From Saccostrea cucullata (lineage: Eukaryota): a stretch of 64,000 nt of DNA. Positions 9,001 to 60,000 of this stretch are shown here, piece by piece. Position 1 is the first letter of the stretch; the number at the start of each line of letters is the position of its first letter. Position numbers: made by a program. The stretch is from assembly GCF_032062105.1 (NCBI RefSeq), contig NW_026940370.1, positions 868,001 through 932,000 of the forward strand. Direction: 5' to 3'.

Positions 9001-12000
9001 TGTTAAGACTAAAACTAAAAACCTGATGAGTATGAATATATTTTTTAAGATGGGATATGCCAATCCTGGCCAGACAAGTAAAGGTATTCATCTCCGTCAA
9101 TACAGTCGAGCCTTCATCATTGCTGACTCAGCCAACAAAAGCAGGATTGTGTTTGTTAGCACAGATTCATGTATGCAGTCTCAAGGACTTAAACTAGAGG
9201 TTTGTGTTTAAGACAATTAAAAAAAACCCAAATATTTCATGTCCTGGGCGAGTGGCTGCTTTTACTTTGAATTTCACAGAAATATTTTGAAGGGACAATT
9301 TGGCGAACAAGTTGCTAAAAGGATATGCAGGCATTAGTGCATTTTAAGGATTGATTGTGGTAATACCTCCACATGTTATATTCCATGTTAACAGTCCTTG
9401 TTAGATATGCACACAAAAGGGAGCCATAAATATATTTACAAAACTTTCATTGTTTTTATTTTCCCCTGATTTCTGTTAATTTAAAGTCATCAAAGAAAAT
9501 GATTTCATTTGAATCACAGATGTTGAAATGCACAAAAGCTATAAAGTGATGCCCATTCAAAATGTTCAAAAGCTGTCTTGATGATGTCTTATTCTTTTGA
9601 AGCGTTAAAACTTCTTTAATTTGTTTCAGATCATCAAACGGCTGAAGAGCAAGTATGGAGGTTTATACAATGAGAGGAACGTGGCTATCAGTGGAACCCA
9701 CACCCACTCTGGTCCGGGGGGATTCCACCAGTACCTCCTCTATGACATCACTTCCCTGGGATTTGTCAATGAAACTTTCCTGTCTCTGGCTGAAGGAATT
9801 GTTGCTGTGAGTATTTTGCTGTAAATCTAAGTATTCTTGATATGCATCTATAAGCAGAAACTTTACTGCTGTTGGTCTAAGATTTATTTTCGAAAGAATC
9901 ATGTATAAGAGTGAAAACTAATTGAAGATGTTTCAAATGTATTAAATAAACATAATATGTGAGAATTGAGTACCTGTGATAAAATATCAATATATTTCAT
10001 TTTTGAGAATCAAAAACAATGCAAAATTTTTCTGTGTTATGATTTGATCAGAATCTAAGTGTTATGTGAGGTATCCAAAAAGTGAGAATTGAAATAAACT
10101 AACTTGCAGAATAAATACATGTATGAACACATGTTGTCTGTTTATATCATGTAGGTGAGCAATCCCACACTCTCATATAAACATTTATGTAATTTTAGAG
10201 CATTGATAAGGCCCATAACTCCATGCGACCAGGAAATCTGTACGTAAATACTGGAGAGCTTCTGGACAGTAATATTAATAGAAGTCCTACAGCCTACCTC
10301 AATAATCCTGCAGAAGAGAGAGCCAAGTAAGTATTACCAAGACAGAACCCCAAGAGGACAAAAGTCCTACAATCTACCTCAATAATCCTGCTGAGGAGAG
10401 AGCCAAGTAAGTTTTATGTAATCAGAGTCGAAAGGAAAAAGTCCGAAAGCCTTCTTCAAAATTCTTGCTGAGGAGAGAGAGCAAAATAAGTGTCACGTAA
10501 ACAGGATCAAAGAGGGCAGTCTGCCTCAGTAATCCTGCTGAGGAGAGAGGTAAGTACCAGGTAAATGCTACATAATCAAGATCAATAAGGACCAAAGTCC
10601 TACAGCCTACCTTAATAATCCTGATGAGGAGAGAGAGATAAGTAAGTGTTACATAATCAGGATTAAAGGGGACAGAGCTCCTACAGCCTACCTCAATAAT
10701 TCTTCTAAGGAGATAGTGAAGTAAGTGTTTCATAAACAGGATCAAAGAGGGCAGCCTGCCTCGGTAATTCTGCTGAGGAGAGAGAACTCAGGTGTACCCA
10801 GACAAGGTCCTATATGGTATCAGACCCATAACCTAAATCATGAATCCCTTATAAGTAATGGTGAAATTAAACTTATTAAACGACAGATAAAATTATGTTG
10901 GGATCAGAAAGAAGACATATTTGCTGTCTTACATAATTATGTATATACTAATCTTTCACAGGTACAGATATGATGTGGACAAAAATATGACAGTCCTAAG
11001 AATGGTAGATGCTCAGAACAAAGGCATTGGAATGATCAAGTCAGTCAGTTTTACCATTAGTTTCTGTTTTATGTGCATGGTTGGAAGAACTACATTATAG
11101 CTAAAGCATATAAATTGAAAATGGTACTCATTAATTAATATAAGACAGTAGTTTAATGGAAACTTTTGCATTATATTTTATTGTTACTACTTACTGTTGT
11201 TTTAGTTGGTTTGCTGTTCACTGCACCAGTATGAACAACACTAACCACCTGATCAGCAGTGATAACAAGGGGCTGGCAGCTCAAATGTTTGAGGCCGACA
11301 TGAACAACGGAGCATTCCCAGGAAAAGTGAGTCGGGTTGTCATTCATACAAGGGGAATTAAAACAGTTCAGAATTTTTTTTAGTAAAATTCAAAACTGTT
11401 TAATGGAGGCTGATATCTTAAAGTCTTACAAAATTGGCATGTTTGTCAACATGCATGCATTAAATACAAGGGTGATAAAAGTCATTGGTAAAATTGAAAA
11501 TATTGAAATGTCAGGAATGCAGAGCTTGATATTGGAGAAATTCCCTGCATAAATTCTTCACTAATGCTTCATCTTAAGGGATTGGGTGCTGAGAGGTTAT
11601 GCTAGGCCTGTCCCATGTTTCCTTATTGACAATAAAACACCTATATGTACAGTTGAATTTCAGTATCTCTAACATCAGTGAGTATCTTGACTACCATGGA
11701 TATGTTTAAGGGATTTTATGTTTAAAGGATTTTGAAGTACAAACTGCTCAATGTATCATCTTAGATATTTTAAATATGTAGATATCTAGATTTTTTTGGT
11801 CCTTGAGCCCAAGATAACAAGGTTTGGCAGTACATGTAAATCCTTAACCATATCTCTGTATGTTGGGAAATTGTGACTGATGGCAGATGAAGTGAGAGCT
11901 TTTTATTATATCATTACACAGGGTGAGTTTGTATCAGCGTTTGCTCAAAGTAATGAAGGTGATGTGTCCCCAAACACAAAAGGACCCCACTGTCTGGACA

Positions 12001-57000: not shown

Positions 57001-60000
57001 TAATTTAAAAGACTTTAATCACAGGAATAATGACTAATAATGTAAGAACTGAGAAGTAGAGATTCGATTTTAGTTACAAGTAAATACATAATACATCTGA
57101 CAGTAACTTCATATGAGTTTAAAAAGCAGCTGTATTTTACTTGTATCATAAATGAGACATATAAAAGGTGCCTTTTATATGGATATCTGCGGCTGTTACT
57201 GCAGCCATAGCCAGTAATGTGTGGATGTCATACCAGAAAAGTGGCACTGTCGCCTTCAGTGATGATAAACTCAAATTCATCATGCTAGAGTGTGAGGTTA
57301 GTGACCTAGACAAATTGATCATAAGACAGTGATTGATTTTATCAGGCTTACATACTTTCAAATAATCAAAACATTACATTTGGTACTTAATAAAAAATTA
57401 CAGGACTTCTGAAATTAATTTTTAGGCATGTATAAAAATGTACTGTAGATCACTAAATTTTCAGACACCAGTCATTGACTCAGACAAAATTTTCACGAAT
57501 TGTGTGTGTGATCAAAAAGTTCGCAAACTATCTCTATATCTACAAAACCACAATTCAGATTAGAATGAAATTCGGTACACACATAGCCATACACAAGGTC
57601 TATAAATAGCATATGCTGAATAAAGTTTCTCTCCTTGTTTGTGACATCACAATGTGAAAATGACGTCACTATTTAGGTCACTGTTCAACAAACGACTGTC
57701 GCCTACAGTATCATATAATAATTTGTACACAGTTTATTGATAAACTCAAATTCATCATTGCATTAATCGTTTTGTGAGGTTAGTGACCTAGTTAAAAAAT
57801 TAATCAGTGAAACAGTGATTGTATTTTTAATTAAGCAGTTTGCTATCAAGACCTCCAATTAGCACTTTGAAAAATAGTTGAATAAAACATTACATTTGGT
57901 ACTTAATAAAAAATTACAGGACTTCCACCTTGAAATTAATTTTTAGGCATGTATAAAAATGTTCTGTAGATGACCATTTCTGACAAATTTTTCTTGTCAT
58001 AAAAATTAACACATGGAAAGAAATATAAAACTCGTAAAAATCTTTTTAACTTTTGTGACAGAAGTTAGGATTGATATCAAGTGATTCGCGCATGCGCAGA
58101 ACGGTGGTTGATGTGCATTAAAATCGGGGAGGATTAACAAAATTTTAAAACCAAATTGTGGTTATTGCCCTATATAATCTTAAGGAATGCTATTATACGC
58201 GGGAATTAAATTTTCGCGAGCACACTGTCTCACGTAATTACGCGAAAATAAAGTTCTTGTGAATAAAAAGTGATTTACGGTATTCAAAATACTTGATTCA
58301 TTAAATCTTAGGAACAAATTTTTTTATAATATAGCAGAAGGTAACTTATGAAACAGTTTTTATGTGTCAAACATCTTTTCAGGAGGGAAAAGTTGCCATT
58401 ACTAAAGTAGCCAATCTTTTGTTATGCATTTGTTCTAAAGAAAATGTGGGATTTGGTATGCTAAAGGCTAAGGTAAGATAAAAGTCCTCCAGTATCAAGA
58501 TCAATTAATATATTTTTTTTCATACAGAAGTATACTTTCAACAGCTTAACTCAGCAATGTAAAATAAATTCAAGATATATCTTGTGTCATCAAGGGCTAA
58601 TCACGGAAAGCTTTCACTTGTACTAGATTTGTAATACAGTATAAACATTGATTTTTTTTTTGTAATTGACCTTTACCTTTTGATAACCTTTAGTCAAGAT
58701 TTTGACACTTTTAGATCAGGGGCAATGACATGCTAGAGTTTGAGTTTATTTCAAACAAGGCTTCAGTATAAATATACATTGTATGTGTATTAGTAAATAA
58801 GTATTACAGTTCAATGTTAGTCTGTTCTTTGTTGTAGATGGAGGCATTAGCGAGTTATTTGGAGGAACCATTATCACAGGTTGCAGCTTCCTGACACAGA
58901 TTGTAAATGCTATTTTATTCAAATCCTAACAGGCAGTCAGAACTGTTTTTATCAATGTTGGACCACATTTTATTGTGAGACAAATACTGCCAATAAATAA
59001 ATATCTAGCCTCACTATACGAGAGACTGAAGTTATGTGGTAGATGTCAATAAAAATCTAATAATTTATCAAAAATAAAGGAAACTTTTTTTTGTTCTATA
59101 CATTTTCAACGTTGGACTTACTAGATACATTTCACACAGTGTTTAAAATTGAGAAAAAAATGTTAGGTATGTTATGATAAATGTAATACATTTAATCTTA
59201 TGAATAAACTATTGTACTTTACTTATTTGATTGATGTTGGAATGTCTTATTAGATAGGGGGTTTTATTTTCTAACAAAAAATTCAAATGCCTGTGTTGAA
59301 AGACATGTTTTTTCTTAGAACATGTAGAACAGAATAATAAATTTGACAATCTTATGGGGTTTCAGACAAGGTTTGTATTATATAAGCCCTAAACACTTAA
59401 CAGATTTTTGTTGGACTACAAGAAAAAAAAAATTACATAGAATAGAATAGATTTTATTTACCAATCATGGTATGAAAGTTAGCATGATTTTTAAACACTC
59501 AAGAGGACAAGAATACATAAACATGCAGCAATACAAAGCATAGGAATGCTAGATATTAAGTCTAGGCAAAACAGAGGTGATGAATTACATGTATGTCCAA
59601 AGACAAAATGTCACCCAAAGAATTGTGGTCCCTCACTTTTGGTGTCTGTGGATTAGGTGTCATTTTTTTATGGCATAATGTGTCAAATTTGAAAGCCCTT
59701 TCATGTCATTCAGAAGTTATCACCATAGTTTTTTTTTTTACAAATAGGTCATTCATGAAGGTCAAGGGGTCAAAAATCATAGCATGCCCAGAAATATCTT
59801 GCCACAGGAAATGCACATGTCTAATATGAAAGCCATATCTCTTCTCAATCAAAAGTTATAAAGAAAAAATAACATTTTTGAAATTTAGGTCAAGCTTTAA
59901 GGACAGGGTCATAAGATTTAAAATCATAGTGTCTTTAGAAAGGTCTGGTCACAATCAATACACAGGTTTAATATGAAAGCCATATGTCTTCTCATTCAAA

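What the first reader, a model, noticed from the sequence alone, without database searches (positions are those of the whole stretch)
10282..57971. Three unrelated genes in 64 kb show local duplication of an exon-intron boundary
Seen: ceramidase exon-4 donor (7 copies in total), MTR kinase exon-3 acceptor (16 copies) and LAMTOR2 exon-2 donor (2 copies). In each case the unit straddles a splice site and the extra copies lie on the intron side, so the duplication itself leaves one exon boundary intact. Inference: either a genome-wide tendency to short tandem duplication that is tolerated only in this geometry, or an undescribed route to splice-site decoys and new intron sequence.
Basis: inference. 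Interest (0 to 1): 0.7.

Follow-up and report, generated by a model that had tools for sequence, protein, structure and literature searches.

The report
Splice-junction repeats in three oyster genes
Three oyster genes each carry extra local copies of a stretch spanning an exon-intron junction, a known kind of repeat (called "mirages" in amphioxus) that lengthens introns and needs no special mechanism here.

Summary
The window is Saccostrea cucullata. It holds 7 copies of an 80-nt unit spanning the neutral ceramidase exon-4 donor. It holds 16 units of 92 nt spanning the methylthioribose (MTR) kinase exon-3 acceptor. It holds 2 copies spanning the LAMTOR2 exon-2 donor, 475 nt apart and not adjacent. 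None has other copies in the window.

That the extra copies lie "on the intron side" follows from geometry: any tandem duplication across one junction leaves an intact exon edge. The route is already described. Amphioxus has "mirage" minisatellites (PMC3087553, PMC3902484). The human F7 intron-7 VNTR has its first unit spanning the donor (PMC1557585).

Three cases in 64 kb is not clearly above chance. Junctions are dense, 82 in 21.6 kb of gene bodies. Random placement of the 29 arrays predicts 2.1 straddling cases, P(>=3)=0.35. Stricter nulls give 0.03-0.07, uncorrected for the window being picked after the fact.

The decoy splice signals decay about as fast as their surroundings. No RNA data or oyster genome was available. 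Verdict: ordinary, and possibly the first bivalve examples.

The parts
10199..10326 (+). Neutral ceramidase coding exon 4 (aa 155-197 of P0001). Its last 44 nt (10283-10326) are the exon part of the repeat unit.
   Evidence: 100% match to NCBI S. cucullata LOC134255247; exon map; Pfam PF04734 E=2.4e-14.
10327..10961 (+). Ceramidase intron 4 (635 nt). Authentic donor CAA|GTAAGT at 10327, acceptor cacag| at 10961.
10283..10362 (+). Ceramidase repeat unit 1, the authentic copy: 44 nt of exon plus 36 nt of intron.
10363..10830 (+). Six extra ceramidase copies (starts 10363, 10440, 10519/10521, 10596, 10677/10679, 10754), all inside intron 4. GTAAGT is kept at 10407, 10550, 10642 and 10721. It is ATAAGT in copy 3 and lost in copy 7. 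Copies 2-4 and 5-7 form a 235-nt higher-order repeat.
22557..24608 (+). MTR kinase intron 2 (2052 nt). 1395 nt of it are extra repeat units.
23193..24587 (+). Fifteen extra MTR kinase units (92-97 nt each). Each holds 21 nt of intron end with a pyrimidine tract and AG, plus the first 71 nt of exon 3. AG is kept in 13 of 15 (GG in units 3 and 8). Unit 1 is the most diverged, with 13 differences from the consensus.
24588..24679 (+). MTR kinase unit 16, the authentic copy: acceptor ttccag| and the start of exon 3. It has 1 difference from the array consensus (Tyr to Phe codon).
24609..24738 (+). MTR kinase coding exon 3.
   Evidence: tblastn of P0030 and P0031; splice signals.
57189..57296 (+). 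Intact 3' part of LAMTOR2 exon 2 (PDB LAMTOR2 residues 42-76). The donor GAG|GTTAGT follows at 57297.
57263..57467 (+). LAMTOR2 copy A, the authentic copy: last 34 nt of exon 2, the donor, and 171 nt of intron 2.
57468..57737 (+). 270-nt spacer between the two LAMTOR2 copies. It has no copy elsewhere in the window.
57738..57985 (+). LAMTOR2 copy A' inside intron 2. It keeps GTGAG|GTTAGT. The exon-derived part is interrupted (8 nt replaced by 15 nt). The 3' part is 95-100% identical to copy A.
57297..58382 (+). LAMTOR2 intron 2 (1086 nt).

Best explanation
These are three independent local duplications of segments that happen to span an existing splice junction. Two have grown into minisatellite arrays (ceramidase donor, MTR kinase acceptor). 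One is a two-copy local duplicate (LAMTOR2 donor).

Inferred mechanism: replication slippage or unequal exchange first doubles a short segment, and the pair then expands and contracts like any minisatellite.

Such a duplication is self-preserving. The copy next to the rest of the exon still has a complete exon edge and its splice signal. The mRNA can therefore stay unchanged, and every other copy becomes intron. A duplication of the same size wholly inside an exon would break the reading frame and be removed.

The extra copies are splice-site look-alikes that decay roughly neutrally. Their net lasting effect is a longer intron built partly from former exon sequence.

Three cases appear in one window because these oyster genes are compact, with a junction every ~260 nt of gene body. 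An 80-90-nt unit landing in a gene therefore has a ~27-31% chance of spanning a junction.

Shown: the anatomy, the local origin, the decay pattern and the chance calculation. Inferred: the mutational mechanism, neutrality, and that the authentic sites are the ones used.
For: Anatomy:
- Searches give the units. Searches give the exon maps.
- Local origin: 0 hits elsewhere in the window for all three units.
- Each junction predates its duplication. Each unit contains intron sequence, and the far end of each intron is unique.

Minisatellite behaviour:
- The ceramidase array has a 235-nt higher-order period.
- The MTR kinase array has 97-nt variant units. Its outer unit 1 is the most diverged (13 differences, against 0-10 for the rest). 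The same edge pattern is reported for the amphioxus BflGb6 mirage (PMC3087553 passages).

Decay, with no sign of coding use:
- Using any upstream MTR kinase acceptor runs into TAG in the next unit (read).
- Extra MTR kinase units carry 13 nonsynonymous and 10 synonymous differences, and 2 of 15 have lost AG.
- Ceramidase donor hexamers are 31/36 identical to the authentic one. The exon-derived part is 198/264 identical.

Chance:
- 82 junctions lie in 21,589 nt of gene bodies, and the median intron is 284 nt.
- 29 arrays: expected straddling 2.11, P(>=3)=0.35.
- 3 of 82 junction-centred 80-mers have a local copy, against 95 of 600 random positions.

Precedents with the same geometry: the F7 IVS7 VNTR (abstract) and amphioxus mirages at both 5' and 3' boundaries, which do not disturb splicing.
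Against: - Inside the four gene bodies the only sizeable local duplications are these three. 0 of 400 random intronic 80-mers outside the arrays have a local copy.
- With extra copies removed, the chance that units of 80, 92 and 205-248 nt all span exactly one junction is 0.269 x 0.312 x 0.364-0.401, about 0.03 (my arithmetic).
- For the 7 arrays that lie in gene bodies, P(>=3)=0.073.
- In the MTR kinase extra units the exon-derived part varies less (23 differences in 71 columns x 15 units) than the intron-derived part (27 in 21 x 15). Synonymous changes are also somewhat more common than raw codon counting predicts (10 of 23, against 24% expected).
- These are nominal hints of enrichment or constraint. 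They are uncorrected for shared ancestry of the units, for transition/CpG bias, or for the window having been chosen because it shows the pattern.
- No RNA evidence was available on which sites are used.
- LAMTOR2 exon 2 looks damaged in its 5' half. Tolerance in that gene may simply reflect a dead or misassembled gene.
Confidence: 0.75

Rival explanations
1. Junction-spanning duplications are truly over-represented in oyster genes. One route would be a mutational bias, for example arrays seeded in GC-richer exon sequence and kept only when they reach into an intron. Another would be that decoy splice sites are kept for regulated unproductive splicing.
For: - 3 of 3 sizeable local duplications inside gene bodies span a junction, and 0 of 400 intronic controls have a local copy.
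- Nominal P is about 0.03-0.07.
- GTAAGT is perfect in 4 of 6 ceramidase decoys although the copies are only 60-81% alike.
- The exon-derived part of the MTR kinase decoys varies less than the intron-derived part.
Against: - The whole-window null gives P=0.35.
- The window was picked after the fact.
- Units share ancestry, as the higher-order repeats show, so the counts are not independent.
- AG is lost in 2 of 15 MTR kinase decoys. About 1.5 losses are expected from ~5% divergence (my arithmetic).
- Use of any decoy gives a frameshift or an early stop.
- The three units differ widely in composition and age: 93% identity in MTR kinase, 60-81% in ceramidase, 74% in LAMTOR2.
Confidence: 0.12
2. 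Rogers-type intron gain: the introns themselves were created by tandem duplication of an exonic AG|GT proto-splice site.
For: - Most of ceramidase intron 4 and MTR kinase intron 2 is repeat.
- The model is established in the literature (PMC2891723 passages; PMC3265369 and PMC4974935, seen only in the listing).
Against: - Each unit contains non-exonic sequence.
- The far end of each intron is unique and unlike the exon: 130 nt before ceramidase exon 5 and ~640 nt after the MTR kinase exon-2 donor.
- Intron length is not one unit.
Confidence: 0.03
3. Assembly artefact: collapsed or expanded reads, or merged haplotypes, created the repeats.
For: - Minisatellite copy number is hard to assemble. 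PMC3087553 notes a misassembled mirage in the amphioxus draft.
- The window's MTR kinase differs from the NCBI protein P0030 at several residues, which suggests a second haplotype or copy.
- LAMTOR2 exon 2 is damaged.
Against: - Copies differ from each other by 0-13 substitutions (MTR kinase) and by 19-40% (ceramidase), with ordered higher-order structure. Artefactual duplication does not produce that.
- Only the exact copy number could be wrong.
Confidence: 0.05
4. The units are pieces of a mobile element, or exon fragments captured by one.
For: Other arrays in the window belong to interspersed families. For example the ~150-nt satellite at 20807, 29063 and 59681.
Against: - The three units have 0 other copies in the window.
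- Each is contiguous and collinear with its own exon and intron.
Confidence: 0.03

Closest known systems
"Mirage" minisatellites of amphioxus (Adh3, TnC, globins BflGb6 and BflGb9, PGBD5)
   Same: - They are tandem repeats whose unit spans an intron-exon boundary. Both 5' and 3' boundaries occur.
- Many units keep AG or GT signals.
- Edge units escape homogenisation.
- They were proposed as a source of intron sequence and new introns.
- Unit sizes of 10-160 bp overlap those here.
Sources: PMC3087553 passages and one PMC3902484 passage.
   Different: - The host is a cephalochordate, not a mollusc.
- Copy-number instability and undisturbed splicing were shown by experiment there. They were not testable here.
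- The LAMTOR2 pair is not head to tail.
Human F7 intron-7 37-bp VNTR
   Same: The first repeat element spans the exon-donor boundary. The authentic donor is therefore followed by identical pseudo-donors that stay silent (PMC1557585 abstract). The ceramidase array has exactly this geometry.
   Different: - It is a mammalian gene with identical pseudo-sites. The ceramidase copies are 60-81% alike and 2 of 6 have lost the donor.
- The 5'-to-3' scanning rule shown there says nothing directly about the acceptor-side MTR kinase array, where the authentic site is the last of 16.
[quoted passage not shown]
   Same: Local duplication turns coding sequence into intron and duplicates splice signals (PMC2891723 passages; PMC3265369 and PMC4974935, seen only in the listing and abstract starts).
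   Different: There a new intron is born inside an exon and equals one unit in length. Here an existing intron is lengthened, and no new intron position is created.
Internal tandem repeats at exon-intron boundaries of human segmental-duplication genes; human introns arising from tandem arrays
   Same: Variable repeats at exon-intron boundaries can form novel introns and activate cryptic sites (PMC2812944 passages).
   Different: - Those are primate paralogues with transcript support.
- The paper on alternatively spliced human introns from tandem arrays was seen only as a title cited in 15 papers. Its content is recalled, not read.

Membership tests
Mirage-type junction minisatellite | Head-to-tail tandem array | tested here: met
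   Ceramidase: 7 contiguous units. MTR kinase: 16 contiguous units. Not met for LAMTOR2, where 2 copies are separated by 270 nt of unrelated sequence.
Mirage-type junction minisatellite | The unit spans an authentic exon-intron boundary including its splice signal | tested here: met
   Ceramidase 44 nt exon + 36 nt intron. MTR kinase 21 nt intron + 71 nt exon. LAMTOR2 34 nt exon + 171 nt intron. Junctions were fixed by protein mapping taken exon by exon.
Mirage-type junction minisatellite | The authentic copy sits at the array edge next to the rest of the exon, and the other copies lie in the intron | tested here: met
   This follows from geometry.
Mirage-type junction minisatellite | Copy-number instability or polymorphism between haplotypes | not testable with these tools
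   Only one sequence of the locus was available. No oyster genome or read collection was at hand.
Mirage-type junction minisatellite | Normal mRNA splicing is undisturbed | not testable with these tools
   No RNA data. The NCBI models P0001 and P0030 join the authentic sites, but they are predictions.
F7 IVS7-like donor VNTR | The first element spans the exon-donor boundary and is followed by functional-looking pseudo-donors | tested here: met
   Ceramidase: the authentic CAA|GTAAGT is followed by 4 perfect GTAAGT sites in 6 extra copies.
F7 IVS7-like donor VNTR | Pseudo-sites are silent because the most upstream site is selected | not testable with these tools
   This needs RNA-seq or minigene assays.
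Rogers-type intron gain by duplication | Both intron ends derive from one duplicated exonic AG|GT, and intron length equals one unit | tested here: not met
   The units contain pre-existing intron sequence. The far ends of the introns are unique. The introns are 635, 2052 and 1086 nt, against units of 80, 92 and 205-475 nt.
Rogers-type intron gain by duplication | The intron is absent from close relatives | not testable with these tools
   No DNA of related oysters was available. Only proteins were seen.

The most novel reading that the evidence does not exclude
Oyster genes may be truly enriched for duplications that span splice junctions, relative to purely intronic duplications. On this reading mirage-type repeats are a widespread, lineage-crossing feature of highly polymorphic marine invertebrates (amphioxus and oysters). 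They would be driven by a mutational bias toward exon-seeded arrays filtered by selection, or by use of decoy sites to tune expression through unproductive splicing. They would also be a major source of new intron sequence in these genomes.
Probability: 0.12. Interest if true: 0.6.

Novelty: new member of a known kind. Interest (0 to 1): 0.3.

Why it matters
If these are ordinary junction minisatellites, they matter in three modest ways.
- They are clean, datable examples of exon sequence becoming intron, and of introns growing three-fold through duplication. The ceramidase intron 4 grew from about 170 to 635 nt, and MTR kinase intron 2 from about 660 to 2052 nt.
- They are natural test beds for splice-site choice. 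Five strong donors sit in a row in the ceramidase intron. Sixteen near-identical acceptor modules sit in a row in the MTR kinase intron, with the authentic one last.
- They are a trap for gene prediction.

They would also take "mirages" outside cephalochordates. Two literature searches found no bivalve report. A genome-wide count in oysters is easy. It would settle whether junction-spanning repeats are just the expected share of a high minisatellite load or something more.

Tried and rejected
- Rogers-type intron birth: rejected, because the far intron ends are unique and the units contain intron sequence.
- Mobile-element origin: rejected within the window, with 0 other copies.
- Coding use of the MTR kinase extra units: rejected. 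92 nt is not a multiple of 3, TAG appears in the next unit, and 13 of 23 differences are nonsynonymous.
- Selection on decoy splice motifs: no convincing signal.
- Microhomology at the duplication breakpoints: I looked by eye at the flanks and found nothing beyond 1-2 nt. Divergence is too high to judge.
It was replaced by a script listing of reading frames and by exon-by-exon searches against solved structures.
- Pfam on the short LAMTOR2 exons and on the Cys-rich ORFs: no hits.
- tRNA scan: 0 genes.
- Not tried: genome contigs, which holds only bacteria and archaea.
- Closed and so unchecked: metagenome contigs, viral contigs and paper supplements. Additional files 4-7 of PMC3087553, with the mirage alignments, may bear on the comparison.
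- A joined spliced model was not built or searched. All exon work was done exon by exon.
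Full report
**Source and genes**

The window has no N and about 34% G+C. The exon-4 peptide of the first gene is 100% identical to an NCBI protein of Saccostrea cucullata (LOC134255247, 740 aa, Pfam ceramidase domains). It is 93% identical to the S. echinata orthologue. The window is therefore hooded-oyster DNA, not human.

All gene work was done exon by exon.

Mapped genes:
- Neutral ceramidase, + strand, 7708-15845, 19 coding exons.
- Methylthioribose (MTR) kinase-like, + strand, 22055-26602, 8 coding exons.
- A RING/B-box gene, - strand, 27067-28233.
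- Two Cys-rich ORF pairs in a segmental duplication.
- ECD/SGT1, - strand, 49844-56604, about 14 exons placed approximately.
- LAMTOR2, + strand, 56753-58894, 4 exons.

Ceramidase:
- The array has 7 of 7 copies, an 80-nt period and a 235-nt higher-order period.
- Exon 4 ends at 10326 and the donor GTAAGT starts at 10327.
- The authentic unit is 44 nt of exon plus 36 nt of intron.
- The six extra copies fill 10363-10830 of the 635-nt intron 4.

MTR kinase:
- There are 16 units of 92-97 nt. TRF reports 15.8 copies at 93% matches.
- Each unit holds 21 nt of intron end, with a pyrimidine tract and AG, plus the first 71 nt of exon 3.
- Unit 16 is the authentic one and runs on into the rest of exon 3.
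- The 15 extra units make up 1395 nt of the 2052-nt intron 2.

LAMTOR2:
- 57263-57467 is repeated at 57738-57985, at 73.7% over 251 columns.
- The first copy holds the last 34 nt of exon 2 and the donor at 57297.
- The junction is fixed by exon-wise matches to solved LAMTOR2 chains, residues 42-76 and 78-107.
- The copies are 270 nt apart, so this is a local duplicate, not a tandem array.

None of the three units has another copy in the window.

**What the copies look like**

Ceramidase:
- Copies are 60-81% alike.
- Four of 6 extra copies keep a perfect GTAAGT. One has ATAAGT and one has lost the site.
- Against the authentic copy, the donor hexamers are 31/36 identical, the exon-derived part 198/264 and the intron-derived part 80/180.
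- Copies 2-4 and 5-7 are a duplicated block, so these counts are not independent events.

MTR kinase:
- Units differ from their consensus by 0-13 positions. The outer unit 1 is the most diverged, and the authentic unit 16 differs by a single base.
- That base makes Phe where the array consensus, the other S. cucullata protein P0030 and the other oysters' proteins (P0031-P0033) have Tyr. The extra units therefore preserve the older state.
- AG is kept in 13 of 15 extra units. The exon-derived parts carry 13 nonsynonymous and 10 synonymous differences.
- Splicing to any upstream acceptor would meet TAG in the following unit, and 92 is not a multiple of 3.
- These patterns fit decaying copies, not coding use.
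- Two mild oddities remain. The exon-derived part varies less than the intron-derived part (23 differences in 71 columns against 27 in 21, over 15 units). Synonymous changes also exceed raw expectation. Shared ancestry of units, CpG/transition bias and exchange with the authentic unit can explain both, and I do not count them as evidence of function.

**Geometry**

That is true of every tandem duplication that spans exactly one junction.
- For a donor, E-A|B-I becomes E-A|B-A|B-I, and the first A|B is still a whole exon end.
- For an acceptor the last copy is the intact one.
It is therefore a property of the mutation, not a sign of a special process. Selection does explain why same-sized duplications wholly inside exons are missing.

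**Is three in 64 kb more than chance?**

Setting:
- The four mapped genes hold 82 splice junctions in 21,589 nt. The median intron is 284 nt.
- I merged the 44 TRF rows and the self-alignment hits by hand into 29 arrays, leaving out the two mononucleotide runs.

Results that show no excess:
- Placing each array's unit at random in the window predicts 2.11 junction-spanning cases. P(>=3)=0.35.
- 3 of 82 junction-centred 80-mers have a local copy within 2 kb, against 95 of 600 random non-junction positions.

Results against my reading:
- For the 7 arrays that lie in gene bodies, the expectation is 1.36 and P(>=3)=0.073.
- 0 of 400 intronic positions outside the three arrays have a local copy, against 53 of 400 outside the genes.
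- With the extra copies removed, the chance that units of 80, 92 and 205-248 nt each span exactly one junction is 0.269, 0.312 and 0.364-0.401. The product is about 0.03 by my arithmetic.

Caveats:
- These nominal values are not corrected for the window having been flagged because it shows the pattern.
- The exons of the Cys-rich genes and all untranslated exons are not in the junction list, which makes the null conservative.

I conclude that enrichment is unproven. The genome-wide test could not be run, because no oyster genome or read collection was available here.

**Known relatives**

- Tandem repeats spanning exon-intron boundaries were named "mirages" in amphioxus. They are reported for Adh3, TnC, the globin genes BflGb6 (3' end of an intron plus 5' part of an exon, 150-160 bp units, 3 or 6 units by haplotype) and BflGb9, and PGBD5. 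Many units keep AG or GT, edge units escape homogenisation, RT-PCR shows regular splicing, and an explicit model links them to intron gain. I saw these as passages of PMC3087553 and one passage of PMC3902484. Their supplements were not seen.
- The human F7 intron-7 37-bp VNTR has its first element across the exon-7 donor. Its pseudo-donors are functional but silent, because the most upstream site is chosen (PMC1557585 abstract and outline). This matches the ceramidase geometry.
- Duplication as a source of introns is Rogers' model (passages of PMC2891723; PMC3265369 and PMC4974935 seen only in the listing; PMC2812944 passages).
- The three oyster cases are not Rogers-type births. The units contain older intron sequence and the far intron ends are unique.

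In two searches I found no report of such repeats in bivalves. One search returned 5 papers, none on this by title or abstract start. One search returned 4 papers, two on amphioxus and two unrelated. These searches cover only the open-access library.

**Verdict**

This is a real and tidy observation of a known kind of repeat, probably newly noted in a mollusc. The most likely explanation is ordinary minisatellite formation in compact genes, plus the self-preserving geometry (confidence 0.75). The bolder reading is that oysters, like amphioxus, are truly enriched for junction repeats or use the decoys. It is not excluded (about 0.12) and is cheap to test genome-wide and with RNA-seq.

Noticed in passing
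window 56753-57296 (LAMTOR2 exons 1-2): LAMTOR2 seems broken in the 5' half of exon 2. Exon 1 matches solved LAMTOR2 residues 1-22, the intact part of exon 2 matches 42-76, and exon 3 matches 78-107. No open frame encodes residues ~23-41. Read in phase from exon 1, the stretch from 57168 ends in a stop. Unnamed oyster relatives have an intact peptide there. It could be a dead gene, a damaged allele or an assembly fault. No named NCBI S. cucullata LAMTOR2 appeared among the hits.
   Followed up: partly
window 22055-26602: This is a spliced, 8-exon methylthioribose kinase gene in an oyster, with relatives in Crassostrea virginica. From recall, animals usually salvage methylthioadenosine with a phosphorylase and lack this kinase, so its origin (old retention or transfer) may deserve a look.
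   Followed up: no
window 22055-26602 versus protein P0030: The window's MTR kinase differs from the NCBI S. cucullata protein at several residues spread over the exons, and P0030 comes from a 17-kb contig. That suggests a second haplotype or a recent paralogue.
   Followed up: no
window 35236-37832 and 41256-45930: A direct segmental duplication at 82-89% identity, with extra sequence in the second copy. It carries two pairs of Cys-rich ORFs (37025-37345 with 37571-37753, and 44750-45040 with 45477-45854) that have no Pfam match.
   Followed up: partly
window 2196-2995 and 3460-4265: An 806-nt segment is repeated at 98% identity with a 1264-nt offset, upstream of the ceramidase gene. Parts of it also occur near 6000, 38000 and 49000, so it probably involves an interspersed element.
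   Followed up: no
window 20807-21635, 29063-29458, 59681-60609: A family of ~147-153-nt tandem repeats occurs at three or more places in the window, probably a satellite tied to a mobile element. A second family, with 21-42-nt palindromic units, is at 20252-20702 and 32644-33199. A third, with 23-nt units, is at 61745-61943 and 62638-62905.
   Followed up: no
window 56604 (- strand) and 56753 (+ strand): The start codons of ECD/SGT1 and LAMTOR2 face away from each other and lie only 148 nt apart, which suggests a shared two-way promoter.
   Followed up: no
window 27067-28233 (- strand): A single 389-codon open frame with RING and B-box zinc fingers, a TRIM-like gene, lies just downstream of the MTR kinase gene on the opposite strand.
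   Followed up: no
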